DNA from: Candidatus Syntropharchaeum caldarium
GTDB taxonomy: Archaea > Halobacteriota > Syntropharchaeia > Syntropharchaeales > Syntropharchaeaceae
Direction: 5' to 3'
Length of the DNA stretch: 64,000 bases
Assembly: GCA_001766815.1 (NCBI GenBank)
Contig: LYOS01000002.1
Span: forward strand, 39,777-103,776
Shown: one piece after another, positions 22,744-60,967 of the stretch
Layout: every line of letters starts with the position of its first letter
Position numbering within the stretch: the first letter of the stretch is position 1
The notes under the pieces: model-generated
What the model saw: only the letters and a program-made list of their open reading frames with translations
Databases searched by the model: none
Told to the model about the DNA's origin: nothing
Translations under genes and position numbers: made by a program

Positions 22744-24336
22744 ATGACAACAGCGGGAAGCTCTCCCATCGTTATTCTCAGTAAAGGTACAGCCAGTTCA
22801 AGGGGAACTGAGGTGCAAAACAATAACATTTCTGCAGCAATGGCAGTTGCAGAAGCAGTAAGAACAACACTCGGACCACGAGGAATGGACAAGATGCTTG
22901 TCGATACAATTGGAGATGTGGTGATCACAAACGATGGCAGCACAATCCTCAAGGAGATCGATATTGAGCATCCTGCGGCAAAGATGGTCGTCGAGATCTC
23001 AAAGACACAGGATACAGAAGCAGGTGATGGAACAACAACCGCGGTTGTGATCGCTGGTGAACTCCTGAAAGGTGCAAAAGAACTTATTGAACTTGACGTG
23101 CACCCCGCCGCAATCATCTCTGGCTATCGCAGCGCGCTCAAACTGGCGAAAGAAGCGCTCGATGAGATCGCGATCGATATGGACGCAATTGAGAATGATG
23201 AAACGCTCCTCAAGATCGCAAGAACATCACTCACTGGCAAGGGCGTTGATGTGGCACACGATCATCTCGCTGAGGTTGTGGTTGCTGCTGCAAGGGCGGT
23301 TGCAGACGAGGAGGGGGTTGATATCGATCGAATCAATGTGGAGCGGAAGGTCGGAGGCAGGGTGAATGATACATTCATGATAAATGGGGTTGCGATCGAC
23401 AAGGAGAAGGTACATTCAGGTATGCCTGATAGAATCAGGGACGCAAAGATCGCACTCATCAACTCATCGCTTGAGATTAGAAAGACCGAGTTCAGTTCAG
23501 AGATCGCCATAAAAAGCCCTGATCAGCTTCAGACATTTTTGGAGCGGGAAGAGGCGTTGATGAAGGAGATGGTGGAGAAGATCAAAGCGAGCGGTGCAAA
23601 CGTTGTTTTCTGCCAGAAAGGAATGGATGATCTGGTACAGTTTTATTTCGCAGATAAAGGTATACTCGCCCTAAGGAGAGTCAAAAAAAGCGATATGGAG
23701 CGTATTTCAAGAGCGACAGGGGCACAGGTCATCACAAACATCGATATGATCGATGAAGAAGCTCTTGGAAGGGCAGAACTTGTCGAGGAGCGGCGGTTTG
23801 GTGGGGATAAGATGACGATCATAGAGGGATGTCTCGATCCAAAAGCAGTATCGATTGTTCTGCGCGGTGGGACGGATTATGTTGTTTCAGAGTTAGAACG
23901 GGCGATTCACGATGCATTGAATACGGTTGGGTCTGCGATTGAGGATAGAAAGATTGTAGCTGGCGGAGGATCACCAGAGGTCGAACTCGCGATGCGGTTG
24001 CGGTCATACAGCAGCAGACTCAAAGGAAAGGAGCAACTCGCTCTTAAGAAATTTGCAGATGCGCTTGAGGTGATACCAGAGACACTTGCCGAGAACTCAG
24101 GATTTGATCCAATGAACAAACTCGTTGAACTGCGTGCTATGCACAATAAAGGTCAAAAAACGGCTGGAATCGATGTCCAAACTGGAAAAATCAGCGATAT
24201 GCTTGAGCAGGGTGTGATCGAACCGTTGCGCGTGAAGCGCCAGGCTTTAAACTCGGCTGTAGATGCCGCAACGATGCTCCTGCGAATAGATGATGCAATT
24301 CCTATGAAAGGATCATCGCCCGGGGAGAGAAAGTGA
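22744..24336 (+). CDS. ths: thermosome subunit (group II chaperonin)
   Basis: [21 protein letters not shown]-binding motif. 530 aa with a C-terminal tail. Confidence 0.9.
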
Positions 24337-24362
24337 TATGCCTCCGGTGATATTATATTACT

Positions 24363-25694
24363 ATGCAACATATGGATCTGAGTACAATCAATATCAGCAC
24401 AAAGGATAGAGAACTACTGAAGAAGAACGGTATCCGTACTGTGGAGGCGCTCGCGATTTTAACTCCAGGCGAGCTCCCGTTCGGAAAGCAGAAAGCAAGT
24501 GCGATGATACAGAACGCAAGGAATGTGATCGCATCGAATAATATCGAAGCGATCGAGATAGAAGATGAAGAGGTGAGGGTGATCTGTTCTGAGCTTGATC
24601 CTGTGATTGAAGCATCGATCAAAGCAGTACTCGGGCTTGATAACCCACACAATCTCATCGAGGTCGAGGATAAAGAATTTTTGATAACTCCAAAGTGGGG
24701 GGCTGAACTCACATGGCGAAGGCTTGTCCTACCACAGATCGTTAAATGGAAGTATGTACTCGATAGTTCAAAAGAGGAACTTCTAAAGGAAAACAGTGGC
24801 TTATCGCTTGATCCAAGCGCAATCATCGATTTTGCTAAGAGCAAAGGCTTTGATGGCTTCTGCAGAGATGTTTTTGAGGATATAAAGGGCAATGAGATCA
24901 TGAAGATGGCGATCACAACCGCACTCTTCTCCACTTTTGATGAACCTGTTCATATTGCGATTGTGGGACCACCCGCATCATCAAAGACCCTTGCACGGGA
25001 GATAATCTCTGACAATATCTCATCTGTTGAGCGAATTGGTGGGAACAGCACAAGAGCAGGGCTTGTTATAAATTATTCTACAGGAGAGCTTGGATCGATC
25101 GCTTATGCAGATGAGCGTCTTGTGCTTGCAGATGAGTTTGATAAAGTCCCGAAAGGAGATATCGAGATGATCTATGAGCTCATGAGCAACGGAACCTGCG
25201 ATGTCCACTCGGGCAGGGTCCACAGAACGATACGCTCAAAGTTCATCATGATAGCAACGATGAATCCCAGAAGAGATGTATTCTCAGCCAATGCGATCGA
25301 AGATATCGGACTGCCACCGACACTGGCATCAAGGTTTGCACTGATCGTTAAGACCGACGATCTCGGTAAACCTGACAGGCTTGATCTCTTCAAAAAGAAG
25401 TTTTACACAGGAAATGAACTCAAAAAGTTCTCGCTCTACTTTGATGAGTGGGTAAAACTTGCACGGACTCATGAACCAGGTATTGTAGCCTCAAACGTTG
25501 ATGAATACCTTGAGAAGATCAATGAGATCGTTGAGGAGTTTGGGTCATCGCCCCTGAGGCGAGATAACAGAATGGGGGAATATGCAAGAAATATTGCATT
25601 CGCGATCGCAAGGTCTGAGTTTACCGATGTCGACGATCGTGTGCTTGATAAGGCACTGGAGATCATCGAAGGTTCTGTGAGGGAGTGGTTGTAA
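24363..25694 (+). CDS. MCM-family AAA+ ATPase domain protein with N-terminal helix-hairpin-helix, lacking the MCM N-terminal OB/Zn domain
   Basis: HhH (LKKNGIRTVEALAILTPGELP). Walker A IVGPPASSKT, Walker B LADEFDKV, sensor-1 IATMNP, Arg finger SRFAL. These are MCM-like motif spellings, not RFC or Lon-like. Confidence 0.55.
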   Translation: MQHMDLSTINISTKDRELLKKNGIRTVEALAILTPGELPFGKQKASAMIQNARNVIASNNIEAIEIEDEEVRVICSELDPVIEASIKAVLGLDNPHNLIEVEDKEFLITPKWGAELTWRRLVLPQIVKWKYVLDSSKEELLKENSGLSLDPSAIIDFAKSKGFDGFCRDVFEDIKGNEIMKMAITTALFSTFDEPVHIAIVGPPASSKTLAREIISDNISSVERIGGNSTRAGLVINYSTGELGSIAYADERLVLADEFDKVPKGDIEMIYELMSNGTCDVHSGRVHRTIRSKFIMIATMNPRRDVFSANAIEDIGLPPTLASRFALIVKTDDLGKPDRLDLFKKKFYTGNELKKFSLYFDEWVKLARTHEPGIVASNVDEYLEKINEIVEEFGSSPLRRDNRMGEYARNIAFAIARSEFTDVDDRVLDKALEIIEGSVREWL

Positions 25695-26951
25695 TCAGAG
25701 CGCCTGCATAATCTCCCTGGCTCGATCCATACGAATTGCTCCTTCTTTAATCATGATCTCCGCGACCTTATCGATCTGATCGCCTGTTGCACCCGCTGCA
25801 ATCGCGATATTCTTTGCATGAAGTTTCATATGTCCACGCTGTATCCCCTCGGTTGCAAGCGCTCTCAGTGCTGCAAAATTCTGGGCAAGCCCTACTGCAG
25901 CGATCACCTCAGAAAGCTCTGACGCGGTTTTAACACCAAGCATCCTGATCGAAGCCCTTGCTACAGGATGTGTTCTCGTTGCACCACCCACAAGTCCCAC
26001 CGCGACAGGCATCTCGATTGTACCAGCAAGATCTCCGTTCTCGGTCTTTTCCCATCTTGTAAGTGGCTGGTAGTTACCGTTTCTGGCAGCATACGCATGT
26101 GCACCTGCCTCGATCGCCCGTGTATCGTTTCCTGTTGCAAGCACAACCGCGCTGACGCCGTTCATTATCCCTTTGTTATGGGTTGCCGCCCGATAGGGAT
26201 CAAGCTTTGCAAGCCTGTAGGCATCGATGATCCGATCAACGACCTCTTCCCCCCCGATCACATTTTTGGGAAAGATCGCCCCAGCCATCGCAACCCTTCT
26301 ATCTGCAAGATTTGAAATAATCTTCAAAATCGCTTCTCCACCTGTAATCTCCTCAAGAATTGGGGAAACACTCTCTGCCATTGTGTTAACAGCATTTGCA
26401 CCCATTGCATCGCGACAATCGACCAGCAGATGTACTACAAGCATCGACTCTCTGCCATCCTCGATGACGCGTACCTCAAGATCCTTTGCACCACCCCCCA
26501 TCTTAACAAGCATTGGATCCTGTGCATTTGCGTGCTCTATAATTCTCTTCTGTGCCTTAAGTACCTCAAACCTTGCAGCAAAAGGATCTTTGATACCAAC
26601 AAGCTGTATCTGACCAATCATTACTGGATCACTCGAACTTGTCGTGAATCCGCCCCCCTCTCGCGCCATCTTTGCCGCGTTGCTCGCTGCTGCAATAACA
26701 GAAGCTTCTTCTATCGCCATGGGGATGAGGTAATCCTTATCATTTATCCTGAAGTTCAGTCCCACCCCGAGCGGCATCTCCAGATAGCCGATCACATTCT
26801 CAACCATCCGATCGAGATCCGTAATCGTTGCACCGCTGCCAGCAATCGCTGATGTTTCTTCGTCAGAGAGATCGGCGAAAGCTTTCACGATTTCAAGCCG
26901 CTCTTCGGGATTTTTCTTGAAAAAACCTGAGATCCTTGAGTTTTTCTCCAC
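25695..26951 (-). CDS. hmgA: 3-hydroxy-3-methylglutaryl-CoA reductase, class II (bacterial/P. mevalonii type)
   Basis: [54 protein letters not shown](K)LHA. Nearly collinear with class II MvaA as remembered. Class II enzymes are known in Archaeoglobus. Confidence 0.88.
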
Positions 26952-40018: not shown

Positions 40019-40879
40019 TTATACAGATGGAACACTCAGCGGAAGTTCAATGATTATATCGTCCTGTGTGCCCCTCTTTATGCTGCCAAACTCACCGAGT
40101 TTACCAAAGTAAAATTCCATCTCTCCGAGTTTCTCTGCATATTCATCATAGGATGCGTTCACTCTGAGACCGCTCATTTTGAGTACCACGTTCACACCAA
40201 ACTTTGATTCAATCTCGGTTTTTATATAGGGATAGGTTGCAGGAACATCAGGTCGAAGGCTTCCGATGATCGAGATTACACTCTCCATAAATGCACCTAT
40301 TATCCGTTTATCATCAGGATCATCGAACATCGTTGGTATCCTTGTAATAGACGGGATGAAAATCAGCTCATCATCAGACTCAAGATCTGCATAGCCTGTC
40401 ACGATCACAGGTACATTAAGCCTTCTGCAGAGTTCCATCTTCTCACGGATACAGTGCTCAAAACATCCAAACATGAAGATCGCCAGATCGTGCTCCTCGA
40501 TCATCATCCGCTCTTCCCTCATCAGAATCGCCTTTCTGCCAACGCCTCTTGCAGGTGCGATTGTGTTCACCTTTGCGCCAGCCTGCCGCAGTGTCTCAAC
40601 CGTGCTGCAGTGTGGAAAGGGTGTGTGATGAAGATTAAATGAGGGGATGATCACCGCAACTTCGATACCATAGAGCGGTACAGTGATAACCCTTCCTGAA
40701 TGCTTACGGAGAGCTGCCCGTTTACGCAGAATGTTCACCGATTCATGATCTATCATCACATCAAATTCTGCAACACCACCCATCTGGTCTATGTTCAGGA
40801 CAAAACCGCCAAGATCCTCTATGAACTCAATTATTTCGTCTGATTCAAACGCATTTCCGATATATTTTAGCGGCATCAT
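40019..40879 (-). CDS. conserved hypothetical protein in the A2-like ATPase operon (Mmp7-sized, unverified)
   Basis: 286 aa, soluble, directly downstream of the second tandem-ABC ATPase. Confidence 0.45.
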   Translation of the reverse strand: MMPLKYIGNAFESDEIIEFIEDLGGFVLNIDQMGGVAEFDVMIDHESVNILRKRAALRKHSGRVITVPLYGIEVAVIIPSFNLHHTPFPHCSTVETLRQAGAKVNTIAPARGVGRKAILMREERMMIEEHDLAIFMFGCFEHCIREKMELCRRLNVPVIVTGYADLESDDELIFIPSITRIPTMFDDPDDKRIIGAFMESVISIIGSLRPDVPATYPYIKTEIESKFGVNVVLKMSGLRVNASYDEYAEKLGEMEFYFGKLGEFGSIKRGTQDDIIIELPLSVPSV

Positions 40880-42870: not shown

Positions 42871-43566
42871 ATGAAAAAACACACACCGCTTCTGCTCATG
42901 ATCGCCGTACTTGCGATCGGTATATTCGCACTCCCCCAGAGCGTTGCGCTTTTCTCAGGTCAGCATTCATGGTATAATCTCACTCCACAGGGTAACGATG
43001 TACCCTGTGAAAAATGTCATGGCGACATCGCTTCAGAGATTGCATCAAGTGGTGCACACAAAAATATCGAGTGCGGCGGATGTCACAGAGCAGATGCAAG
43101 GGTTGGCTATGCCGGGGACTGGGAGGGGGATGTGGATCCAGGACAGGGTGCACACGCGGCATCGACTATTGAGTGTATGATCTGCCATGACAGGGGCACA
43201 AACTTCACACACTCCAATATCGGAAGTGATGAGTGTTCTGACTGTCACACCTCGCCTTTTGTGGCGCCTGGGGCAGGAGGCTTCAATCTGACTGATCCTT
43301 CTGTCTTGCCGTCTGATACCGGCACAAAAGCCGCACACATGCAGTTTGTCCATGACGCGATCAACGAGACGCTCATGGAGGGTGCAAACGAAGCCTGTAT
43401 AGCATGTCATACGCATGTGGGTGTCAACATCACATGGACGAAGAACGTGGTGCTCAACTTTGAAGCATCAGAGAATGAGACTGGAAGCTGGTCGATCCCT
43501 GAGTTTTCAGCAACAGGGGATAATGTGACAGAATCAAACTATACAAACACCTGGGTAAATACTTAA
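42871..43566 (+). CDS. secreted pentaheme c-type cytochrome
   Basis: Signal peptide plus five CxxCH motifs (CEKCH, CGGCH, CMICH, CSDCH, CIACH). 14 nt upstream of the giant cytochrome gene. Confidence 0.85.
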
Positions 43567-43579
43567 AAGGGGGGTTAAA

Positions 43580-46500
43580 ATGAATGAAGGAATGAAAAAG
43601 GTCAAAATCTTTATTCTCGTATTGCTTATGATCGCATCACCGTTTTCGATGCTTACTGCAGGTGCTGCTATCGATGGCTCAAAGCATGACTTCACGTTTG
43701 AGAGTGAACTTACGCCAAATGGTGCGTGTTCCGCCTGCCATGAGTGGCGTACCATGACGTGGGCACGAAACCTGAGTGAAGAGGAGGCTTATTTTAACCA
43801 GACAGAAGATCCAAACTACGTCCATGATCCTACCATAAAATGCTATGACTGTCACAGTGGCACTGCGGCAGACAATGATCCCAGTTACACGCTTTTTATC
43901 AATACAACACTTGGCAGATATATCCCGCAGGACGTTGCCTTTGATGCCAATATGAAGGGAAACGATCTATCCTATGACAGCTCACCCTCTGATGATGAGA
44001 CCGGATACTACGAGTCATCGACATCAGGCCACTACATAAAGACGAACGCAACAGGCCTGACGAATATTGAACCTGGTGATAAGCTCCCATGCACCGACTG
44101 TCATGAACCACACGAGACAGAACCCACAAATGAGGTCTTCATAAAAGGAAGCTCCGAATATCCACTTGGTGGAAAGGTTGTATCAAACTTAAAAGCAAGC
44201 ACAAACACCCGATCTGGTACTGGCACTGGACGTGAGATCTGTGCGGTATGTCATGGATACAGCGATTCAGGCATAGCTGTCAGGTTTGTTGATGTTAATC
44301 CCCTCTATGGCTCGACCGATAGGATCGTTCAGACCCCGTCAACGGTATCCCAGCATGCAGAGAATGATTCAACACCATGCACAGACTGCCACTCACATAG
44401 CACCCCGGCATCGTATTTTGTCGGAATCAGCAGCCACAACACCCACTTAACCGCCGAGTTTGGACCCAAAATATCCTCGTGCACAGGTGCCGATGGCTGT
44501 CACAGTGAGGGAAACTTCAGCCGCTTCAACGACAACCTCACACTCTCAGCGACTCATGCCTGCGATAACTGCCACAGCCCGAATGGAACATACAATGGTG
44601 TCACCCTTGCCAAGGCAAGCTGGGAAGAAGGCGTCTACAACGGCACAGACTTAAAATCAAGCAAGGAGAAGTGGTGTGCAAGCTGTCATGATAAAGAACC
44701 TGCCAGCTCTATGGGGAATGGAAGCGGTATAAACGCCCCGAATATCGTCGGGATGAATCTAAGCGGTAGCTGGCAGAGCCCCGTCGCTATTATAACAAAT
44801 CAGACGGAAAACGTCAGTGATGCAACAAACCTGCTGGATGGTGACGTTGAGACCGGTGCGAGTGTGAGTGGGGCATCCCAGATCGTCTTTGATCTTGGAG
44901 AGAGTACAGAAGTCTCCCATATCAGGCTTTACACATCTGCCAGTTCCACGGTCAAGTGGGAGGTGTACGGGAGCAATGATCTTTCAAACTGGACGAGAAT
45001 ACTCTATGGTCAGGATGTGATCTTTTCCGCTCCTGCATGGCTTACAGGTGAAGATGAGGGATGGGATGAGAGCAGGGTTGACAGGATCATACCTGTGAGA
45101 TACATCAAGCTCTACAAGAGGAGTCCGTGGCCCGTGGGGAGTGGTTCTCAGCGTGAGTTTGAGTATAAAGCAGATATACGGTATGGATACTATACCACCG
45201 GTCACAAGATTGCCTGCACCAACTGCCACAATAGAAGTAGCGCGCATATCGATGGAACCTCACAGACCTACAACACAACCCTTGATAACTATCAGACAGG
45301 TTTCAGGCTGAAATATCTTGAGGTTGAGAATGAAACCGTCCCCTCACTTGAGATACCAAGAGTCGACTGTAACTGGGGTGATTATCCAAAAACCTCAAAC
45401 GACTTTGCACTCTGTTTCTCATGCCACAACAAGTATAACCTCCTCGGGGATGCGAGTGGTACAGGCGACTACCATAAGGATCCACCCCAGACAAACTTCA
45501 GGAACAACACCACAAACGCCCACCTCATCCATCTGCAGGGAAGGGGATACTGTGGAAACAATCCTGACTGGGACTCAGACTGGAACGGCACAGCAGACTC
45601 ACCACAGAGTTGCACCGCGTGTCACAATGTTCATGGCTCTCCTGCTCCTGCGATGACAAGACACGGAGAACTTGTGAGTATCAACGATACCCTTGAGAAG
45701 GCTCCCCTCCTGAACCTGAAGTACATAAACGCAGACGGAGAGCTTGATCATAATCTCTCAGATGCCACCCAGAGTATCGGCGGAAGGACACAGTTCTATG
45801 GTGCAGGACCCGGAAACGTTGCGAAGAATAAGGTGTGTAACATGTGCCACAATGATCAGATTACCTATTATCGCACACCAGTACCTCCCACCGTAACCTG
45901 TGGTAATGGATCAGGAACAGGAGGCTGCCACAGCCCCACCGCATACTCTTCCTCTGCAGCAGGCAGCCACAATACTCATCTAACCGCACCCAGGGGACCA
46001 AACATAACATCCTGCACAGGTGCTGATGGCTGCCACAAAGGCAACCACACCGGTCTCTTCAACGATGGTTTACCGCTATCAACAACCCACAGATGTGATA
46101 ACTGCCACAGCCCGAACGGGACATACGATGGTGTGAATGACTCCACAATCGGAGCAAAACCCAACTGGGAAAATGGAGTGTACAACAATTCCACGACATT
46201 AAAGTCAGGCAAAGAGAAGTGGTGTGCAGGATGCCATGATGACGAACCGGCGTATAGTAAGGCAGAGTACAGCGAGGTCATCGTGGATAACACCGAAGCT
46301 TCTTTTGCTGGTTCATGGAGTACATCCTCTCACTCAACCGATTATGGAAGCAACTACAGATACAATGGTGCAGGTTCAGGCACTGAAACAGCAACGTGGA
46401 CACCTAACCTGCCAGAATCTGGTAATTACTCGGTCTATGCATGGTGGCCCATATATGTTTCAGGAAGAGCAACGAATGCACCGTACACCGTGTACTACAG

Positions 46501-49500
46501 CAGCGGGTCTGAGACGGTAAGGGTGAACCATAAAGCAGGAGGGGGTGGCTGGAACTACATCGGCACATGGAACTTCTCTGCTGGAACATCAGGTTACGTT
46601 GTGCTCAGTGATGATGCCGATGGAATTGTAATGGCTGATGCCATCAGATTTGTTAAAGGCGGGAATGCCACGTACGCACCCAATATCATCGGTGATAATA
46701 CAAGCTATGGGTTCTATGCAACAGGTCATGGTCGAAGCGGTGTTGTGGATTGCCTGTCCTGTCATGATTCAGATAAAACCCATATCGATGGAATTCAGCG
46801 AACGTATGAAGCAAATGAGACAACAGGTGATGCGATCACACCCTACAATAACAGCTACCGTTTAAAGGATCTTGATGGGTTGCCAGCGATGGTAATGCCA
46901 AGAAAAACAACATCCACATTTAATATGCAGGCCTACTGGCGGGATTTTAACCTCTGTTTTGACTGTCACAACAGGTTTGAGGTGCTGGGTGAAACATCAT
47001 CGGATATCAGTAACACCAACTTCTGGAATAATGATTCAAGTATCTCAAACTCACACTGGCTCCATCTCGGGATAGATAGCAAGCACTTTGACTCTGATTA
47101 TGACAGTTCTGCAGACTCACGTGAGAGCTGCATCGCATGCCACAACGTACACGGTTCGCCAACAGGACCGATGATAAGACATGGAGAACTTATAAGCTAT
47201 CCAAGTACAGCGAACAAGGAGCCTGCGCATAATTTCTACTATCTTCTCCCTGGAGATGGTTCAGCCACTGCCAGGTTTACACCCACACTTGCAGGCGGAA
47301 CATATGATATCTATGCATGGTGGAGCTCGCACTCAAACCGTGCGACAAATGCAAAGTATATAATATACCATGATGGTGGTAGCGCTGAGGTAATCGTCAA
47401 TCAGGAGGAGAACGGCTCACAGTGGAACCTCCTTGGCGAGTACAATATTACAACTTCAAACGGCACGGTCGTTCTGACATCAGATGGCGCCAACGAGTAC
47501 ATCATGGCAGACGGAATCCAGTGGAACAGAACAGATGGCGGAGATACTGTCTATGTTGATGAACCTGATGCCACCTATACTGGAAGCTGGACTGTGGAGA
47601 CCTCAAACCCAGACAAATATTACGGAGATAGCACGAGATACTACTATGCACCCATCAGGAATGCGACTGCAAACGTGAATAAGAGTACTGGCGGCACCTT
47701 CTATGTAAGCGGTGTAATCACTGCAAATCATCTCTGTCAGATGTGTCATAGCAACGTCCAGTACAACAGAGACCCGTATACCGGACCAAGAGTTCCATAC
47801 AGTGATGCAACCCCTGATAACATCTCAAACTTTGAGAGTAACACTGTAACATTCACGGCTTTCGTTACCGATGTGGATGAGAACATAGCAAATGTTACCA
47901 TCGATCTCTCAAGTTTTGGTGGTAACGTTAGCCAGAGGATGTACGATGACGGAACCCACGGTGATACCAAGGCAAATGATGGTGTGTATAGCTACCAGTT
48001 CACAGTGCCTGCAGGTGTTGATGATGGTCCAAGGAGTATCACAGTCACCGCAACAGACGATGATGGTAATAGCGGTGAAGGTCTGATCGATCTTACCGTC
48101 TATCAGCCAGGCGCACTGATCATCGATGATGAAGATGCAAGCTTCACCGGAACATGGGGAGAATCCACGGCAGACGAGACGACGTATGGAACAGGATACC
48201 GCTGGCATGCTTCAGGCACCGGGAGCAATACAGCAACGTGGAGTGTCAACATCACAACCGCCGGTAACTACACCGTCTACGCACGATGGGTTACAGGAAG
48301 CAACCGTGCTACAGATGCACCCTACACGATTAACTATGAAGGAGGCAACGAAACAGTAAGGGTTTCACAGCGGATAAAAGGAGGAAAGTGGAACCGTCTT
48401 GGCAACTACTACTTTGACGTCGGCGAGTACTCGGTCGTTCTCACAGATGATGCTGATAACTACGTTATAGCTGATGCGATAAAGCTTGAATCTGAAGCCC
48501 CTCCAGCTTACCACCCATGGCCAATCGCCGACAATCCCGATGCTGAATACAACGGAACAGGATGGTATACTGGAACAGCCGATAGCGGTTATTATGGCTC
48601 AGACTTCTACTACCATGCCTCAGGCACAGGAGAAAATACCGCAACATGGACACTCGCAGTTCCAGAAGCTGGAAAGTACGATGTGTACGCATGGTGGGCA
48701 GACGGCTCAAACCGTGCAACCAATGCACCCTATATGATTAACTACGAAGGAGGCAGTGAAACAGTAAGGGTTTCACAGAAAATAAATGGAGGAAAGTGGA
48801 ACCTGCTTGGGACATATTCATTCAATGCAGGTAACTATTCAATAGTACTCAGTGACGATGCAGATGGATTCATCATTGCCGATGCAGTGAAGTTTGAGCT
48901 TAACCAATCTGTATGGCTCACCCCTTCCTCAATCCAGTGCACAAACCTCACCAACGCTTCACTCCTGATCGATAACAGCACATCAACTGCCAACGCGCTT
49001 GATACCGGAGATGAACAGTATGTGGTCTTTGATCTTGGTGCAAGATACACCGTTCCATCGATCAAGATGTACACTGATGGTAGCGGCAACTACACATGGG
49101 ATGTCTATATGGGGGATAACATATCTGATCCTGCCTGTTGCAACCATTCAAGCTGGGGCACGCCTGTCCTTGAGAACTGGACTCCCTCTACTTCGGGGTG
49201 GAACGAGGTCAACCTGACAACACCCGCCACAGCGAGATACATAAAGCTCATGCGAAACGATACAGGTGATGATCTTGCCGCAGACAGCCTCTATGAGTTC
49301 ATGTTCGACCCACCAACGGCAACGCTCACCTTTGAACTCCACTCATACGCTGATATGCATATCTATGACCCGGAGGATCGCCATCTCGGGATGAACTACA
49401 CGACAGGCGAGATCGAGAACCAAATTCCCGGAGCAGTATATGACTTCGGTGATGTCCAGACTGCTACCCTGCCAAAGCTTGCAGTGGGGGAGTACAGGGT

Positions 49501-50482
49501 GATACTCAAAGGAACGGGGACAGGTGGATATGAACTGACCGTCACGGGCGAGGATGATGATGGTGTACTCACCAGTGAGACCGTTGCTGGAAATATCACA
49601 GCAGGTGAGATCCATGATGCAACCGCAGCGGTTAACACCACAGACATCACAAACATCACGATAGCACTCGAAGATGAGCCAGAGCCAACGATCAATGCAG
49701 ACGGAGTTGATAATGTCACACTCGCTGATCTCTATCCTGATATCGATGAGGTTGATATCGACCCCCTCGATCCTGAGACGATCGATACCACAGGGATGCC
49801 AGATATTGCCATTCACACCGCCTACATGGTCAACGCCTCAGGAGATGGTGAGTACACACTGAGGTTTGAGGATGTGGAGAACGCTGAGCTTATCACTGCA
49901 GTCTATAAGATCAATGAAGAGGGTGAATGGATCGAGCTTCCAGCAGTGATCAATGGATCGAGAGTTGAGGTTACGATGGAAGCAGGTGATCCACCGGTTA
50001 TTTTTGCATATCCAGCACCAGAAACACCGACTACAGATGACACAAACACCGCATCAACAGGTGGTAGTGGTGGTGGGGGCGGCGGAGGTGCAGGCCCGAA
50101 GGACTCAGATGGTGATGGTGTACCCGATCGTCAGGAGCAGCTTGATGGGACAGATCCTCTCAACCCTGATACAGATCATGATGGACTGAACGACTTTGAG
50201 GAGCGTGTGGCAGGAACAGACCCGAACAATCCTGATACCGATGGTGACGGAATAATCGATGGTGAAGATCCGGATCCAGCGATTATGAACTTCACACAGA
50301 AGGTGAAGAAGACCTTCTCTGATATTTCAGATACCATCTTTAGATCGGGTTCAGAGAATGCGCCGGTACCATCTTCAGAGAGCGGTGCAGAAGAGAAGAC
50401 GCCAGGGTTTGGAAGCTTTGCCTGGATCGTAGCAGTTCTTGCTATGGGGTATCTGGTAAGAAGGGAAAAAGTTGAAAAATAG
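43580..50482 (+). CDS. giant (2300 aa) cell-surface multiheme c-type cytochrome with PGF-CTERM anchor
   Basis: Signal peptide. At least 17 canonical CxxCH motifs plus CX5CH/CX8CH variants. Internal duplication of a heme-rich module. Two discoidin-like domains, five or more roughly 100-aa beta-sandwich repeats (…SNRATNAPY…), an Ig/CARDB-like domain, a poly-Gly linker, TSP3-type DxDxDG repeats, and a C-terminal [23 protein letters not shown] signal. Confidence 0.9.
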
Positions 50483-54012: not shown

Positions 54013-56220
54013 CTATCCTATATAAGCGTTGGCTTCCACTGATCTCCTGCTGCCCCTGAAAATGCGTTCCATTCGCTCATAGAAGTCACGAGCATTCTCA
54101 TCCATCGTTGGCTTGACAATTGACAGTGCCTCTATAAAATGCCTCATCTTCACGCTGGTGGCGTCAAAATCCTCTCTCAGCGCTATAAGTCCTGCTTCTG
54201 TGCATAACGCCTCAATATCAGACCCCAGATAATCTTCTGTTAGATCTACAAGCTCACTGAGATTGACATCATCTGAAAGCGGCATAGAAGCAGTATGTAT
54301 CTGGAATATCTGCCTTCGATCCTCTTTTGATGGTGGCGATACAAAGATGATCCTGTCAAACCTACCAGGTCGCAAGATGGCAGGATCAATTGCATCATAG
54401 GATCGGTTCGTTGCAGCAAGCATAACAACTCCTTCAAGCCCCCTGATTCCATCCATCTCCGTTAGAAGCTGGTTCACAACCCGTTCTGATGTCTGTGACC
54501 CATTCATGCCTCTGGCGGGTGCTATTGCATCAATCTCATCGAAGAATATTATAGAGGGTGCAGCCTGCCTCGCCTTCCTGAATATCTCCCTTATTCCGCG
54601 TTCTGATTCTCCGAGCCACTTTGACAAGATCTCAGGACCATTGACCGCGATGAAGTTTGCAGATGACTCATGTGCGATAGCTTTGGCAATGAGTGTCTTG
54701 CCGCAACCGGGCGGACCGATCAAGAAGATGCCACCTGAAGTTTTAATTCCCATCCGTTCAAGATGCTCGGGGTATTTGATTGGCCACTCAACCATCTCAA
54801 TAAGCTTCTTCTTAACATCTTCAAGACCCCCAACATCCTTCCAACCAACCTTTGGCGTCTCGATAAGAACGTCTTTTATTATCGATGGTTCGAGATCGTT
54901 CAAAGCCATCTTGAAATCTTCGGACGTTACAACCAGTTCTTCAAGCCTCTCTTCAGGTATTGAATCGTCTTCAAGCTCGATCCCTGAGAGGAATCTTCTC
55001 AAAGCACACATCGCAGCTTCTCTGCAGACTGCCTCAAGATCTGCCCCGACATACCCGTGCAGCTTTTCCGAGAGCTTCGCAAGATCAACATCCTTCCCAA
55101 GCGGCATATTGCGGGTATGGACCTGTATGATCTCAAGGCGATCCTCATAATCAGGTACCTTGAGTTCGATCTCCCTATCAAATCTGCCAGGACGCCTCAG
55201 TGCGGGATCGATCGCGTTCAACCTGTTTGTCGCTCCGATCACAACGATCTCACCACGATCCACCAGCCCATCCATGATCGTTAGAAGCTGCGCAACCACC
55301 CTCCGTTCGACTTCTCCCGAAACTTCCTCGCGTTTTGGGGCAATTGAATCTATTTCATCAATAAAAATGATAGAGGGAGCATTTTCACGCGCTTTTTCGA
55401 ATACTTCTCGAAGGTGTTTCTCGGATTCACCGTAATACTTTGATACGATCTCCGGTCCTGCGATATCGAAGAAACTTGCGCCTGCTTCGTTAGCCACAGC
55501 TTTTGCGATCAGGGTCTTGCCACACCCGGGGGGACCATGCAGAATCACGCCTTTTGGGGGTTTCACGCCAAGTCGGTTGAATACCTCAGGGTGCTTGAAC
55601 GGCAGCTCTATCATCTCTCGGACTCGCTGTATCTCAGTTTTCAATCCACCAATATCCTCATAGGTGATTCCAGATAGGTTAAAATCTGTTTCAGCCTCGA
55701 TCGCGTCGGTGAGAAGTTCAACCTCTGTATCTGCTGTCACAACAACCGCGCCATCTGGTTCGAGATCGCGGACAACAAATGGCAGAAACTCACCAAGCGT
55801 TGTGTTACTCATTACAGGGATAATGTCCCCCTTGCAGAGCGCACGTTTCATGATCTGAGCATGTACAAGTTCTGTAACGTTCTTTCCACCAAAGACAACG
55901 TGACTTCCTTCAATTGGGGCAAGTTTGACACGAATTGCATTATTGATTTCCACTCGCCTCAGAACAACCCGCTCTCCGATCGCGACATTTGCATTCTCAC
56001 GAGTGTAACGATCGATCTTCACGATTCCTTTCTCCCAATCCTGTTTACTGAGCCTTGAAAGTCGTGCAACCGTCTTTCGTTTCCCCTCAATCTCGATAAC
56101 ATCCCCATAAGAGACTTTTAGATTGATCACGACATCGGGAGATACAGCTGCTCGCCCTCGCTCAAGATCTCTCGGATACGCCTTTGATACAATAAGATCT
56201 ACTTCTTCCTTCATTTTCAC
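54013..56220 (-). CDS. cdc48: CDC48/VCP-type AAA+ ATPase
   Basis: 735 aa. N-domain plus two AAA modules (GPPGCGKT twice, DEID Walker B, second-region-of-homology Arg fingers). Confidence 0.9.
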
Positions 56221-57296
56221 CCCTCAAACAAACTCTTCTGATAGCTTTTTATTCGTTTAACTGCATCCTCTGCTATCGCCGGATTTATCTCGTACCCAGC
56301 ACCATCCCGTTTCAAATCCCTTGCAGCAACCAGAGTCGTTCCTGAGCCCAGAAAAGGATCAAGCACCGTCTCTCCGATGAAACTGTATGCCTTTATTAGC
56401 CTGTAAGGCAGTTCATAAGGAAATGGTGCAACATGATCCCGTCTATCTCCACTTCCCTCTGGATTTATCAACCACACATCACTCTTCTTAAGCGAGAGCC
56501 AGAACTCTTTATCGAGCTTTGATGCTTCCTTTGCTTCAGGAGTGAGGTGTGCGTACTTTCTATAACCTGCTGGAGATGGCTTCTCAAACTCAAGGATAAA
56601 CTCATGGGCATGATTCAAAAGGATACCACCAGGATAGGGGTACGTCCCAAAATGCGCCCTTACCGAGTTTGTCTTATGCCAGATAATATCCCGTTTGAAG
56701 ATGAATCCGATCCTCTCACAGAGGTCGATCGTTCTTCCCACAAGATTTAAAGTTTTAAAACTCCCCTCTGTCCTTATCGGCAGGTTCATGATATTGATAA
56801 ATGCCTTTCTTCCGGGCTGTAAAACCCTGAAGACCTCCTCCCAGACATTGCTGATCTCATCAAACCATTCATCCAGGTCATGAATATCGCCAAGATCGCT
56901 CTCTATAGGCTCTCTGGAGTACATCTTTGCATTAAAATACGGTGGAGAGGTTACCATTAAGTGTATCGAGTTATCCTCTATCTCAGACATCACCTGTGCA
57001 TTCCTGACATAGATACGTTGACTGGTCCCGTTGACCTCAATGACGCTGGTTTCGCCGAGCACACTGCCTGTTTCATTCCTGCTAAACCCCTCGACTTCAA
57101 TTTTCTGTAACGCATCAAGTGTGAATCGATATTGTCCACTGGCTGATCTGTACGTCTCTATGGCATTTCGCTTAACAAGCTCATGGAGGTTACTCACCGA
57201 TATTCCAAGATATTTTGCAGCTTCTCCTGATGATAGGTAACTTCTATTCCTATAATCTGTTATCATCGCTTTATGACTATTTTTATCTCTTTCCAC
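56217..57296 (-). CDS. DNA methyltransferase (beta-class N4-C/N6-A, SPPY...DPFLGSGTT order) with N-terminal HTH DNA-binding domain
   Basis: Motif IV SPPY precedes motif I FLDPFLGSGTT. N-terminal MerR/excisionase-like HTH (YLSSGEAAKYLGISVSNLHELV). 4-nt overlap with cdc48. The start may instead be the internal Met at 57266. Confidence 0.75.
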   Translation of the reverse strand: MERDKNSHKAMITDYRNRSYLSSGEAAKYLGISVSNLHELVKRNAIETYRSASGQYRFTLDALQKIEVEGFSRNETGSVLGETSVIEVNGTSQRIYVRNAQVMSEIEDNSIHLMVTSPPYFNAKMYSREPIESDLGDIHDLDEWFDEISNVWEEVFRVLQPGRKAFINIMNLPIRTEGSFKTLNLVGRTIDLCERIGFIFKRDIIWHKTNSVRAHFGTYPYPGGILLNHAHEFILEFEKPSPAGYRKYAHLTPEAKEASKLDKEFWLSLKKSDVWLINPEGSGDRRDHVAPFPYELPYRLIKAYSFIGETVLDPFLGSGTTLVAARDLKRDGAGYEINPAIAEDAVKRIKSYQKSLFEG

Positions 57297-60205: not shown

Positions 60206-60967
60206 ATGAATGATGGAGGGGTTAGCATAACACTGGAACGGGTAGCTACCGGAATTATGGGACTGGACGAGTTGATTGGTGGCGGTTTTCCCGCAAAGAC
60301 CGTAAATCTTATTTCAGCACCTTCAGGTAGTGGAAAGACACTCTTTGCCATGCAGTATATATACAATGGTGCGAAGGATCATGGAGATGTTGGAATCTTT
60401 ATCACGACAGAGGAAGGCTATGGCAGCATACAGCGGGCAATGAGTGCATTTGGAATGGATATCACCAGATACGAAAACGAAGGTAAACTTTTCATCTTCG
60501 ATATCGCAGAACTGAGGAAAGAGATTGGTATCTCTAAATCCGAAAGACAGATAATGACGTTTGAGGCATTGCAGGATGCACTGGCGGGGATATTGAAGTA
60601 CACCCGAGCAAAAAGACTCGCTCTTGACTCACTTGTGGGAATAGGACTTGCGTACCATTCTAACACCAGTCTGCGTGAAGATATCTTCAGGTTCAGCTGG
60701 TATCTTCGCGATATGAATCTAACATCACTTTTGACGACCGAGTCTGTTGAAGGCGTAGCAGGACTTACAAGATATGGGGTCGAACAGTTCATCTCAGACT
60801 CACTCATTGTTCTCGGGCTTGAGGATAACAACGGCGAACTCGTGCGAACGATCAGGGTGAGAAAGATGCGTTTTACAGCGCATGATCGTGGAAAACACCC
60901 GTTCCTCTTCACTTCAAAGGGTATAGAGGTCTCACCCGGAGAGAAGATTTTTTTAGTTCATGGATGA
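60206..60967 (+). CDS. KaiC/RecA-superfamily ATPase (single KaiC-like domain)
   Basis: GLDELIGGGFP, Walker A SAPSGSGKT, Walker B-like LALDSL, KaiC-type core. 253 aa. Confidence 0.7.
   Translation: MNDGGVSITLERVATGIMGLDELIGGGFPAKTVNLISAPSGSGKTLFAMQYIYNGAKDHGDVGIFITTEEGYGSIQRAMSAFGMDITRYENEGKLFIFDIAELRKEIGISKSERQIMTFEALQDALAGILKYTRAKRLALDSLVGIGLAYHSNTSLREDIFRFSWYLRDMNLTSLLTTESVEGVAGLTRYGVEQFISDSLIVLGLEDNNGELVRTIRVRKMRFTAHDRGKHPFLFTSKGIEVSPGEKIFLVHG

What the first reader, a model, noticed from the sequence alone, without database searches (positions are those of the whole stretch)
24363..25694. Stand-alone MCM-type AAA+ ATPase with N-terminal HhH but no MCM N-terminal (OB/Zn) domain, between thermosome and HMG-CoA reductase
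The motif spellings are MCM-like (Walker B DEFDK, sensor-1 TMNP, Arg finger SRFAL). The 443-aa protein carries only a helix-hairpin-helix DNA-binding element upstream of the ATPase and no zinc or OB-fold hexamerisation domain. Such 'mini-MCM' proteins are poorly characterised. They may act in repair or plasmid/provirus replication rather than as the replicative helicase. Chromosomal housekeeping context makes it unlikely to be part of a mobile element.
Basis: partly seen in the sequence, partly recalled or inferred. Interest (0 to 1): 0.55.

Follow-up and report, generated by a model that had tools for sequence, protein, structure and literature searches.

The report
Short MCM-type ATPase with RAD51-like head
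This archaeal gene encodes a shortened relative of the replication helicase MCM in which the usual front half is replaced by a DNA-binding domain like the one at the start of the recombinase RAD51; it belongs to a conserved, apparently unstudied protein family that probably moves along or grips DNA but is unlikely to be the cell's main replication helicase.

Summary
The ORF is real (24363..25694, +, 443 aa; start may be 24372). Its ATPase half is MCM-type by Pfam, profile-profile and fold comparison, and it scores below threshold for Mg-chelatase and BrxL/Lon. All ATP-site motifs are invariant across the family. It has no OB fold, zinc module or C-terminal winged helix. The helix-2-insert pore loop is 7-8 residues shorter than in canonical MCMs. 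The pre-sensor-1 hairpin spacing is unchanged.

The N-terminal HhH is specifically RAD51/RadA-N-like.

The protein (source: Ca. Syntrophoarchaeum caldarius) belongs to a sharply delimited ~440-aa family. The family occurs in at least 94 species-level genomes (mostly Thermoplasmatota, plus Syntrophoarchaeum) and in a Bathyarchaeia MAG. Members are almost always solitary among housekeeping genes and are absent from sequenced viruses and plasmids.

A few divergent relatives sit in defence-like contexts, including a rare four-gene module with a BrxD-like ATPase.

Most likely it is a ring-forming, DNA-dependent ATPase or translocase for genome maintenance, not the replicative helicase. The biological role is inferred. 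Verdict: real, a new variant of a known kind, moderately interesting.

The parts
24363..25694 (+). Whole ORF, 443 aa including stop. The alternative start ATG at 24372 gives the 440-aa protein in NCBI.
24346..24351 (+). GGTGAT Shine-Dalgarno-like motif in the 26-nt spacer after the thermosome stop codon, 11 nt before ATG 24363.
   Evidence: read directly from the sequence; function not tested
24372..24542 (+). RAD51/RadA-type N-terminal (HhH)2 domain, residues 4-60. G23 is invariant and the second hairpin G-K-Q-K is basic.
   Evidence: Profile of the N-terminal 150 aa against PDB: best hit RAD51 N-domain 1B22, E = 5e-5, then RadA and DMC1. Foldseek: RAD51, RAD51C and RadA N-domains, rmsd 1.5-1.7 A over 54-62 residues, probability 1.00.
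24543..24692 (+). Small beta-beta-alpha-beta-beta domain, residues 61-110, with no confident structural relative. It is not an OB fold.
   Evidence: AF2 models with pLDDT >90 in this region. Foldseek gives only weak ArgR-C-, RRF- and designed-protein-like hits. No MCM_OB hit.
24705..24872 (+). Two long helices (residues 115-170) leading into the ATPase. They contain the family-invariant GFDGF motif (F163, F166) and align to the segment between the OB fold and the ATPase of canonical MCM (MCM profile ~236-290).
24894..25361 (+). MCM-type AAA+ alpha/beta subdomain, residues 178-333.
   Evidence: Pfam PF00493, PDB phmmer, Foldseek, hhalign
24966..24989 (+). Walker A GPPASSKT. G202, P204 and K208 are invariant.
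25059..25106 (+). Shortened helix-2 insert, GLVINYSTGELGSIAY (residues 233-248), 7-8 residues shorter than in canonical MCM.
   Evidence: Walker A Lys to Walker B is 49 residues (48-51) in 125 family members against 57 (56-59) in canonical MCMs. hhalign shows two 4-residue gaps here.
25131..25145 (+). Walker B DEFDK. D257, E258, D260 and K261 are invariant.
25194..25235 (+). Pre-sensor-1 beta-hairpin TCDVHSGRVHRTIR (residues 278-291). Its length is retained. The canonical pore lysine is replaced by H282-S283, with a basic residue at position 285.
   Evidence: Model strands 278-283 and 286-291. Walker B to sensor-1 spacing is 39 in both the family and canonical MCMs. Alignments.
25257..25268 (+). 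Sensor-1 TMNP. N301 and P302 are invariant.
25329..25343 (+). Arginine finger SRFAL. S323 and R324 are invariant. It aligns to the MCM SRFDL motif.
25368..25682 (+). Five-helix AAA+ lid, residues 336-440. The protein ends here and has no winged helix.
   Evidence: The tail after the Arg finger is ~123 residues against ~226 in canonical MCMs.
25554..25571 (+). Invariant LRRDxR block (L398, R399, R400, D401, R403). R403 aligns with the sensor-2 arginine of canonical MCM.

Best explanation
The ORF encodes a catalytically intact, ring-forming AAA+ ATPase of the MCM clade. The N-terminal tier that defines replicative MCMs (helical subdomain A, zinc module, OB fold) is replaced by a RAD51/RadA-type (HhH)2 duplex-DNA-binding domain plus a small alpha/beta domain. 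The C-terminal winged helix is absent.

Proposed mechanism, in steps. (1) Subunits assemble into a ring, probably a hexamer. The active site needs Walker A/B and sensor-1 from one subunit and the SRF arginine finger and sensor-2 arginine from its neighbour, and all of these are invariant. The conservation is shown; the oligomer is inferred. (2) The HhH domains hold DNA by its backbone without sequence specificity at the entry face (inferred from the RAD51-N fold). (3) The retained pre-sensor-1 hairpin drives DNA through the pore as ATP is hydrolysed (inferred from MCM). (4) The helix-2 insert is naturally shortened by 7-8 residues, and the OB, zinc and allosteric-loop tier is missing. The motor is therefore more likely a duplex- or branched-DNA-bound, DNA-stimulated ATPase or translocase than a processive unwinding helicase. 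This is inferred by analogy with the MtMCM h2i-deletion mutant.

In Syntrophoarchaeum it is a solitary chromosomal gene. I therefore assign it to genome maintenance (recombination, repair or fork remodelling), working alongside a canonical MCM that I expect but did not verify elsewhere in the genome.

Confidence by tier: identity and architecture ~0.9; DNA-dependent ring ATPase that is not the replicative helicase ~0.6; genome-maintenance role ~0.35.
For: MCM-clade identity:
- Pfam PF00493 scores 51.6 bits against a cut-off of 23.3.
- The 60 PDB sequence hits listed are all MCM.
- All top-50 Foldseek hits are MCM, over about 320-340 aligned columns at E ~1e-17.
- hhalign against 37 canonical MCMs gives probability 100% and E = 1.4e-41, reaching the end of the lid.

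Active site and pore loops:
- The active-site residues are invariant in 35 aligned members.
- Pre-sensor-1 hairpin spacing is retained (39 against 39). The h2i is 7-8 residues shorter. The tail is ~100 residues shorter. There is no CxxC motif in the first 200 residues of 124 of 128 members.

N-terminus:
- RAD51-N is the best PDB hit by profile (E = 5e-5) and by structure (rmsd ~1.5 A).
- There is no OB or MCM_N hit.

Cellular, solitary, conserved:
- At least 94 species-level genomes carry it.
- The family scores 400-595 bits in an exhaustive search; everything else scores 150 bits or less.
- Neighbours are housekeeping genes in the window and in most loci.
- No member occurs in virus or plasmid collections.
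- The module partner g3 is known from only six metagenomic proteins.

Literature: h2i deletion in MtMCM abolishes unwinding, raises dsDNA-stimulated ATPase about 12-fold and tightens duplex binding (PMC4619765).
Against: - There are no biochemical or genetic data for any member.
- No repair or recombination gene is a conserved neighbour.
- Divergent relatives, including the closest outgroups of the Syntrophoarchaeum clade, lie beside restriction-modification, McrBC or CARF genes or inside a BrxD-like module. This points towards defence.
- The h2i is shortened, not deleted.
- The isolated MCM AAA+ core can unwind DNA (PMC4619765), so helicase activity is not excluded.
- I did not confirm the presence of a canonical MCM in this genome.
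- The distribution across archaea is patchy, which fits an accessory rather than a core function.
Confidence: 0.5

Rival explanations
1. It is an anti-invader (defence) motor. Like BrxL, it would be an MCM-type ring that loads on foreign DNA and blocks its replication or marks it for nucleases. In Syntrophoarchaeum it would act alone or with unlinked partners.
For: - Three divergent members end a conserved four-gene operon: g1, a BrxC/BrxD-type ATPase, g3, then the MCM-like gene. The operon is flanked by N6_N4 methyltransferases and Mrr or PD-(D/E)xK nucleases. The accessory genes are homologous between loci.
- P0059 lies between McrBC and a CARF protein.
- P0008 lies beside an 831-aa methyltransferase/NmeDI_C protein, and P0009 beside an EVE-domain protein.
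- There are weak hits to the PADLOC candidate PDC-M37B and to BrxL models.
- BrxL is an MCM-family AAA+ DNA-binding ring with non-MCM N-terminal DNA-binding domains (PMC10164562 and PMC12839542).
Against: - The window holds no defence genes near the ORF. The only DNA methyltransferase is about 30 kb away.
- Homologues of those defence neighbours are absent from the other ~85 loci examined.
- The g3 partner family has only six members, none named from Syntrophoarchaeum or Thermoplasmatota.
- No PADLOC system model is matched convincingly.
- 25 Thermoplasmatota species keep the gene between a KH-domain gene and NAD synthase, with protein identities of 67-98%.
Confidence: 0.2
2. It takes part directly in chromosome replication. 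It could be an alternative replicative helicase. It could also be a subunit or regulator that co-assembles with, loads or caps the canonical MCM ring.
For: - The full MCM-type catalytic site and the pre-sensor-1 hairpin are present.
- The MCM AAA+ core alone can unwind DNA without the N-terminal tier (PMC4619765).
- The literature reports heteromeric MCM assemblies in Methanococcales (PMC12680538).
Against: - It lacks the N-terminal tier, the zinc module and the winged helix found in replicative MCMs.
- The h2i is shortened.
- The full-length NCBIfam MCM model scores 38.5 against a cut-off of 940.
- In my searches the family appeared only in some archaeal lineages, so it cannot be a universal replisome part.
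- It sits on a long branch apart from canonical MCMs.
Confidence: 0.12
3. It is a relic or cargo of an integrated virus or plasmid, where MCM-like proteins serve as the element's own replication helicase.
For: - MCM genes occur on archaeal viruses and plasmids (hits).
- The protein matches PHROG 10371 'DNA helicase' at 63.5 bits.
- The best BFVD structural match has E = 1.3e-16.
Against: - Those hits are canonical viral or plasmid MCMs, at 25-32% identity over the ATPase core only. No family member is found in 50,697 phage or virus records or 72,556 plasmid records.
- The flanking genes are thermosome, HMG-CoA reductase and geranylgeranyl reductase.
- Local GC content is the same as the rest of the window.
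- No integrase was found among the scanned ORFs.
- The gene is conserved at the same locus in three Syntrophoarchaeum species.
Confidence: 0.04
4. It does not act on DNA. It would be a protein-remodelling AAA+ (MoxR/Mg-chelatase-like) that is functionally linked to the thermosome.
For: - The gene lies next to a thermosome gene in all three Syntrophoarchaeum species and in Bathyarchaeia.
- There are sub-threshold Mg_chelatase, AAA_3 and AAA_5 matches.
Against: - The thermosome adjacency is absent from all Thermoplasmatota loci, and the gene order differs between the two lineages that show it.
- The N-terminal domain is a nucleic-acid-binding HhH of RAD51 type.
- MCM is clearly the closest relative by every measure.
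Confidence: 0.04

Closest known systems
Archaeal replicative MCM (for example SsoMCM, MthMCM; PDB 8EAG, 6MII, 4R7Y)
   Same: It shares the AAA+ alpha/beta subdomain and lid, with MCM-style Walker A, Walker B (DExDK), sensor-1 (NP), SRF arginine finger, sensor-2 arginine and a pre-sensor-1 hairpin of identical spacing. Foldseek gives E ~5e-18 and hhalign probability 100%.
   Different: It has no subdomain A, zinc module, OB fold or winged helix. The h2i is 7-8 residues shorter. The canonical pore lysine of the pre-sensor-1 hairpin is not conserved. It is 443 aa against about 650-690 aa. It scores 38.5 against 940 on the NCBIfam MCM model.
BrxL of BREX systems (especially the type-4 form described without a Lon domain)
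   Same: The concept is the same: an MCM-family AAA+ core preceded by non-MCM DNA-binding domains. BrxL forms chambered ATP-dependent DNA-binding rings for which no helicase activity could be shown (PMC10164562 and PMC12839542). Some relatives of the window protein lie next to a BrxD-like ATPase and methyltransferases.
   Different: All BrxL models score below threshold: Pfam 16.3 against 25, TIGR02688 18.6 against 329, and no PADLOC BrxL hit for the window protein. There is no Lon-like domain. No PglX, PglZ or BrxC gene lies nearby in the window. The N-terminal domains are different.
RAD51/RadA/DMC1 N-terminal domain
   Same: The fold is the same and sequence similarity is detectable. By profile, E = 5e-5 to 1B22. 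By structure, rmsd 1.5-1.7 A over 54-62 residues. This domain is part of DNA-binding recombinases.
   Different: The second hairpin is 4 residues shorter (alignment). It is followed by an alpha/beta domain and an MCM ATPase, not a RecA-type core. No Pfam HhH model reaches its threshold.
BcMCM, the MCM-like helicase of a Bacillus cereus prophage
   Same: [quoted passage not shown]
   Different: In BcMCM the replacement has weak homology to primases and the gene lies within an integrated phage. Here the replacement is a RAD51-type HhH and the gene is chromosomal and archaeal. No close sequence relative was found in the phage collection.
MCM8/MCM9 (eukaryotic recombination-associated MCM paralogues)
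   Same: They are MCM-clade motors used for recombination and repair rather than bulk replication (abstracts listed). This is the functional analogy I favour.
   Different: MCM8/9 keep the N-terminal domain (described in PMC10400076, listed) and are eukaryotic. They have no RAD51-type HhH domain. I have not shown any specific relationship to this family.

Membership tests
MCM family (replicative helicase) | MCM P-loop AAA+ domain (PF00493) above the curated threshold | tested here: met
   51.6 bits against a cut-off of 23.3, residues 162-333.
MCM family (replicative helicase) | Walker A, Walker B DExDK, sensor-1 N, SRF arginine finger, sensor-2 arginine | tested here: met
   K208, D257/E258/D260/K261, N301, S323/R324 and R403 are invariant in 35 members and align to the MCM motifs.
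MCM family (replicative helicase) | Pre-sensor-1 beta-hairpin | tested here: met
   Model strands 278-283 and 286-291. Walker B to sensor-1 spacing is 39, the same as canonical. The canonical pore lysine aligns to S283; the basic residue is at position 285.
MCM family (replicative helicase) | Full-length helix-2 insert hairpin | tested here: not met
   It is 7-8 residues shorter in all 125 family members measured: 49 against 57 residues from Walker A Lys to Walker B. hhalign shows two 4-residue gaps.
MCM family (replicative helicase) | N-terminal OB fold (PF17207) and helical subdomain A (PF14551) | tested here: not met
   No Pfam hit at E <= 1, whereas 36 of 37 canonical MCMs hit MCM_OB. Foldseek of the N-terminal model finds no OB or MCM N-domain in the top 50. 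hhalign extends weakly into the OB region (family 47-120 against MCM 170-236), but no other test supports this.
MCM family (replicative helicase) | Zinc-binding subdomain B | tested here: not met
   The protein has only three cysteines (75, 167, 279) and no CxxC. 124 of 128 family members have none in the first 200 residues, against at least one in 36 of 37 canonical MCMs.
MCM family (replicative helicase) | MCM AAA-lid (PF17855) | tested here: inconclusive
   No Pfam hit at E <= 1. However, hhalign aligns through to MCM position 580 including sensor-2, and Foldseek aligns about 335 columns.
MCM family (replicative helicase) | C-terminal winged-helix domain | tested here: not met
   The model ends with the lid helices. 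The tail after the Arg finger is ~123 against ~226 residues.
MCM family (replicative helicase) | Full-length NCBIfam model NF040949 | tested here: not met
   38.5 bits against a cut-off of 940, matching profile positions 325-474 only.
MCM family (replicative helicase) | Hexamer formation and 3'-5' helicase activity | not testable with these tools
   This needs biochemistry or a multimer model.
RAD51/RadA N-terminal (HhH)2 domain | Sequence-profile similarity to solved RAD51/RadA N-domains | tested here: met
   1B22 E = 5e-5, full-length RAD51 chains ~3e-4, Pyrococcus RadA 1PZN 0.009. The next class of HhH proteins has E >= 0.12.
RAD51/RadA N-terminal (HhH)2 domain | Structural superposition | tested here: met
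   RAD51, RAD51C and yeast Rad51 N-domains superpose at rmsd 1.5-1.7 A over 54-62 residues with probability 1.00. SsoRadA 2bke matches more loosely (79 columns, rmsd 6.2 A).
RAD51/RadA N-terminal (HhH)2 domain | Pfam HhH model (for example HHH_5) above threshold | tested here: not met
   Only sub-threshold hits to DUF4332, TfoX_C, RNA_pol_A_CTD and HHH_5, each in 2-5 of 22 members.
BrxL (BREX) | BrxL-specific ATPase models, a Lon-like C-terminal domain and a BREX gene neighbourhood | tested here: not met
   PF13337 16.3 against 25. TIGR02688 18.6 against 329.3. No PADLOC BrxL hit for the window protein. No C-terminal domain after the lid. No PglX, PglZ or BrxC in the window.
Mg-chelatase ChlI / YifB | PF01078 above threshold over the ATPase | tested here: not met
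   20.1 bits against a cut-off of 20.3, covering residues 230-304 only.

The most novel reading that the evidence does not exclude
The family would be a natural 'tier-swapped' MCM motor whose ancestral setting is a loader-plus-motor pair. An ORC/Cdc6-type (BrxD-like) ATPase would load a RAD51-N-headed MCM ring onto duplex DNA, as in the four-gene module of L088, L089 and L092. That would be a licensing-like mechanism turned against foreign DNA or used at damaged forks. The solitary Syntrophoarchaeum and Thermoplasmatota genes would then be domesticated descendants. They would serve as a dedicated duplex-DNA translocase or branch-migration motor, and would represent a previously unrecognised archaeal genome-maintenance enzyme class.
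Probability: 0.17. Interest if true: 0.75.

Novelty: new variant of a known kind. Interest (0 to 1): 0.5.

Why it matters
- **A natural experiment on the MCM mechanism.** MCM is the core motor of archaeal and eukaryotic replication. How its N-terminal tier and its two pore hairpins couple ATP hydrolysis to unwinding is still studied through engineered deletions. This family is a conserved MCM ATPase that has lost the whole N-terminal tier and the winged helix, has shortened one pore hairpin and has acquired a recombinase-type DNA-binding head. It occurs in about a hundred species-level genomes.
- **What characterisation would show.** It would reveal what an MCM core does when freed from replication-specific parts: translocase, clamp, or branch-migration motor.
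- **A candidate maintenance or defence factor.** Characterisation could uncover an unrecognised genome-maintenance or defence factor in uncultured archaea, including alkane-oxidising Syntrophoarchaeum and sediment Thermoplasmatota.
- **Annotation.** Naming this protein 'replicative DNA helicase Mcm2', as one source does, is misleading.

Tried and rejected
1. **Hidden or frameshifted MCM N-terminal domain upstream.** Rejected. The thermosome gene stops 27 nt before the start, and a canonical-MCM HMM hits only this ORF in six-frame translation of the window.
2. **Vestigial OB fold in residues 61-110.** hhalign extends the alignment to MCM positions 170-236. Pfam MCM_OB does not hit, and Foldseek of a confident N-terminal model finds no OB or MCM N-domain. 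I treat this as unproven.
3. **Mg-chelatase, YifB, Lon or BrxL identity.** All are below threshold.
4. **A catalogued defence system.** PADLOC gives only weak, partial hits.
5. **Virus or plasmid origin.** No family member occurs in either collection.
6. **A conserved functional neighbourhood.** Within Thermoplasmatota the recurrent neighbours are eIF-1A, RIO1, a KH protein and NAD synthase. This is lineage synteny at 67-98% protein identity and says nothing about function.
7. **Unlinked module partners.** The g1, g2 and g3 profiles find nothing in the window or in the other loci. The g3 family has six members in the large database.
8. **Locating the canonical MCM of this genome.** It is not in the window or in the locus flanks. 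Cluster look-ups of ten canonical MCMs gave no usable close relative to use as a query. I ran no further search on an untargeted attempt.
9. **Literature.** Searches for an HhH- or RAD51-headed MCM, for 'mini-MCM', and inside the BREX and archaeal replisome papers found no description of this family. No supplementary files were held for the replisome survey.
Full report
**Observation**

The window contains the ORF exactly as reported: 24363..25694 on the + strand, 443 codons, ATG start, TAA stop. The motif spellings are correct: GPPASSKT (202-209), DEFDK (257-261), TMNP (299-302), SRFAL (323-327). The upstream gene (22744..24336, +) is a thermosome subunit (Cpn60_TCP1, E = 1.6e-185). The downstream convergent gene (25695..26951, -) is HMG-CoA reductase, followed by a geranylgeranyl reductase.

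The start is uncertain by three codons. The identical NCBI protein P0001 is 440 aa and most homologues begin at the second ATG (24372). A GGTGAT motif at 24346-24351 lies 11 nt before the first ATG. The source organism is Candidatus Syntrophoarchaeum caldarius, where the protein is named 'DNA-dependent ATPase MCM'.

**The ATPase half**

Pfam's MCM P-loop model matches residues 162-333 at 51.6 bits (gathering score 23.3). Mg_chelatase (20.1 against 20.3) and BrxL_ATPase (16.3 against 25) stay below threshold. The 60 PDB sequence matches listed are all MCM subunits; the best is 4R7Y at E = 3.9e-11.

An AlphaFold2 model built on 35 family sequences is confident (pLDDT 90.1, pTM 0.77). Its 50 best Foldseek matches in the PDB are all MCM subunits. 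The best is SsoMCM 8EAG_F at E = 5.2e-18, and typical matches align about 320-340 columns.

I compared the family profile with a profile of 37 canonical archaeal MCMs. All 37 carry MCM and MCM_lid, and 36 carry MCM_OB. The comparison gives probability 100% and E = 1.4e-41 and runs to the end of the lid.

**What is kept and what is lost**

Across 35 members the following are invariant: Walker A (G202, P204, K208), Walker B (D257, E258, D260, K261), sensor-1 (N301, P302), the SRF arginine finger (S323, R324) and an LRRDxR block. R403 in that block aligns with the MCM sensor-2 arginine. Because the arginine finger and sensor-2 act across subunit interfaces in MCM, their conservation argues for an active oligomeric ring. 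That step is inference.

Spacing measurements on 125 family members and canonical MCMs show:
- **Pre-sensor-1 hairpin:** length unchanged (Walker B to sensor-1 is 39 in both).
- **Helix-2 insert:** 7-8 residues shorter (Walker A Lys to Walker B is 49 against 57).
- **Tail after the arginine finger:** about 100 residues shorter (123 against 226), so there is no winged helix.
- **CxxC motifs in the first 200 residues:** none in 124 of 128 members, against at least one in 36 of 37 canonical MCMs.

The full-length NCBIfam MCM model scores 38.5 against a cut-off of 940. The protein is an MCM-clade ATPase. It is not a member of the replicative MCM family in the full sense.

**The N-terminal part**

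A profile of the first 150 residues finds the human RAD51 N-terminal domain as its best solved relative (1B22, E = 5e-5). Full-length RAD51, Pyrococcus RadA, yeast Rad51 and DMC1 follow. Other HhH proteins start at E >= 0.12.

A separate confident model of residues 1-150 (pLDDT 92.3) superposes on RAD51, RAD51C and yeast Rad51 N-domains at 1.5-1.7 A over 54-62 residues with probability 1.00. It finds no OB or MCM N-domain in the top 50. No Pfam HhH model reaches its threshold.

It has only weak resemblance to ArgR C-terminal and RRF-type folds. hhalign extends weakly into the second half of the MCM OB region, but nothing else supports a vestigial OB.

**The family**

An exhaustive profile search of 1.84 billion representatives shows a sharp boundary. 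Full-length ~440-aa members score 400-595 bits. The next proteins score 150 bits or less, and canonical 640-690-aa MCMs score 85-120 bits. A crude NJ tree places the family as one clade on a long stem.

In species-representative genomes, 94 stretches encode it. Nearly all are uncultured Thermoplasmatota, plus two further Syntrophoarchaeum species. A Bathyarchaeia member also exists.

No member occurs in 50,697 phage or virus records or 72,556 plasmid records. Only canonical viral or plasmid MCMs match, at 25-32% identity over the core.

**Gene context**

In the window and in most loci the neighbours are housekeeping genes. Within one Thermoplasmatota clade the gene sits in eIF-1A / RIO1 / KH / [gene] / NAD-synthase synteny. 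That covers 25 loci with 67-98% protein identity. A thermosome gene is adjacent in all three Syntrophoarchaeum species and in Bathyarchaeia, but nowhere else.

Divergent branches look different.
- P0020, P0011 and P0064 end a conserved four-gene operon: g1, a BrxC/BrxD-type ATPase, g3, then the MCM-like gene. The operon is flanked by DNA methyltransferases and Mrr or PD-(D/E)xK nucleases. The accessory genes are homologous between loci.
- P0059 lies between McrBC and a CARF protein.
- P0008 and P0009 are the nearest outgroups of the window's clade. They lie beside a large methyltransferase and an EVE-domain gene respectively.

These associations do not extend to the bulk of the family. Homologues of those defence genes are absent from the other ~85 loci. 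The g1-g3 profiles find nothing in the window. The g3 family has six members in 5.8 billion proteins. PADLOC gives only weak, partial hits.

**Mechanism**

Published work on MtMCM shows that deleting the h2i abolishes unwinding. It also raises dsDNA-stimulated ATPase about 12-fold and tightens blunt-duplex binding from >1 uM to ~8 nM. The AAA+ core can unwind without the N-terminal tier, but less processively (PMC4619765). BrxL is another MCM-family core with foreign N-terminal DNA-binding domains. It forms ATP-dependent DNA-binding rings for which no helicase activity could be shown (PMC10164562; PMC12839542).

By analogy, a ring with six RAD51-type HhH heads, an intact pre-sensor-1 hairpin and a shortened h2i is best read as a DNA-stimulated ATPase. 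It would grip or track along duplex or branched DNA rather than act as a replicative helicase.

Given its solitary, stable chromosomal setting, I favour a genome-maintenance role. A defence role (0.2) and a direct replication role (0.12) remain open. Mobile-element and non-DNA readings are unlikely.

**Limits**

- I did not establish that the genome also encodes a canonical MCM. None lies in the window or in any locus flank, and I had no targeted way to search the rest of the assembly.
- No oligomer model or biochemistry is available.
- The tree is a distance tree.
- My literature searches found no description of this architecture, but the library is incomplete.

**Verdict**

It is a new variant of a known kind and moderately interesting (0.5).

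Noticed in passing
L088:3252-8329, L089:1429-6328, L092:405-5474: A conserved, tightly spaced four-gene operon. Its order is g1 (~340-358 aa, no domain hit), a BrxC/BrxD-type ATPase (~390-410 aa), g3 (~452-476 aa, no confident domain) and the RAD51-N/MCM-like ATPase. N6_N4 DNA methyltransferases and Mrr or PD-(D/E)xK nucleases flank it. The literature describes BrxD as ORC/Cdc6-like. The operon pairs an initiator-type and an MCM-type AAA+ and matches no PADLOC system convincingly. It may be an undescribed defence-like module.
   Followed up: partly
window 22744-25694; L006:3915-7174; L007:861-4159; L004:2911-6402: The gene lies next to a thermosome (Cpn60_TCP1) gene in three Syntrophoarchaeum species and, in the opposite order, in a Bathyarchaeia MAG. 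It does not do so in any Thermoplasmatota locus. This may be coincidence or lineage synteny. I found no functional link.
   Followed up: partly
P0062, P0065, P0066 (for example L087:3274-4716): Three family members carry a Cys/His-rich insert of about 35-40 residues just after the alpha/beta middle domain. It gives a sub-threshold B-box zinc-finger hit (21.2 bits against a cut-off of 24.1). So a zinc module has been added in one branch of a family that otherwise lacks one.
   Followed up: partly
P0081 (613 aa), P0071 (622 aa), P0067 (479 aa): These are architectural variants. P0081 replaces the HhH and alpha/beta head with an unrelated ~285-residue N-terminus that includes a low-complexity Ala-rich linker. 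P0071 and P0067 carry extra N-terminal extensions of ~180 and ~140 residues ahead of the HhH. None of the extensions has a Pfam hit. Miscalled starts or gene fusions are not excluded.
   Followed up: partly
P0093 (378 aa), P0095 (609 aa), P0101 (403 aa): These proteins form a second group of short MCM-like proteins and are the nearest outgroup (about 130-150 bits to the family profile). By eye, from the sequences, they have a similarly short helix-2-insert region but quite different N-termini. P0093 matches PHROG 10371 'DNA helicase' at 141 bits. The h2i shortening may predate the RAD51-N fusion.
   Followed up: no
L001, L011-L084 (Thermoplasmatota loci): There is recurrent same-strand synteny of HD-domain protein, eIF-1A, RIO1 kinase, KH (Pno1/Krr1-like) protein, [MCM-like gene] and NAD synthase. 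I found 25 loci with both the KH and NAD-synthase neighbours, at 67-98% protein identity.
   Followed up: yes
window 42871-50482 (+): This stretch holds a 231-aa multihaem cytochrome followed by a 2300-aa protein. The large protein has cytochrome c7/c3 and paired-CXXCH motifs, four Golvesin_C domains, a galactose-binding-like domain and TSP3 repeats. It looks like a giant extracellular multihaem cytochrome. From my own knowledge, that would be of interest for interspecies electron transfer in this syntrophic alkane oxidiser.
   Followed up: no
window 56217-57296 (-): This ORF encodes a stand-alone DNA methyltransferase (HTH_17 plus N6_N4_Mtase, E = 6e-42). I noticed no adjacent restriction gene. 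It lies about 30 kb from the MCM-like gene. It is 36% identical over 117 residues to the methyltransferase beside the L088 module. It is probably unrelated to the finding.
   Followed up: partly
window 40019-40879 (-), 54013-56220 (-), 60960-62501 (+): Other notable genes in the window are a methyl-coenzyme M reductase operon protein C, a CDC48/p97-type double AAA ATPase and a KaiC-like ATPase with a DUF7504 region. From my own knowledge, the first fits an alkyl-CoM reductase organism.
   Followed up: no
window 24353-24934 (-): A 193-aa antisense ORF lies entirely within the conserved MCM-like coding region. I think it is most likely a spurious ORF, because the opposite strand encodes the conserved protein. 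I did not test this directly.
   Followed up: no
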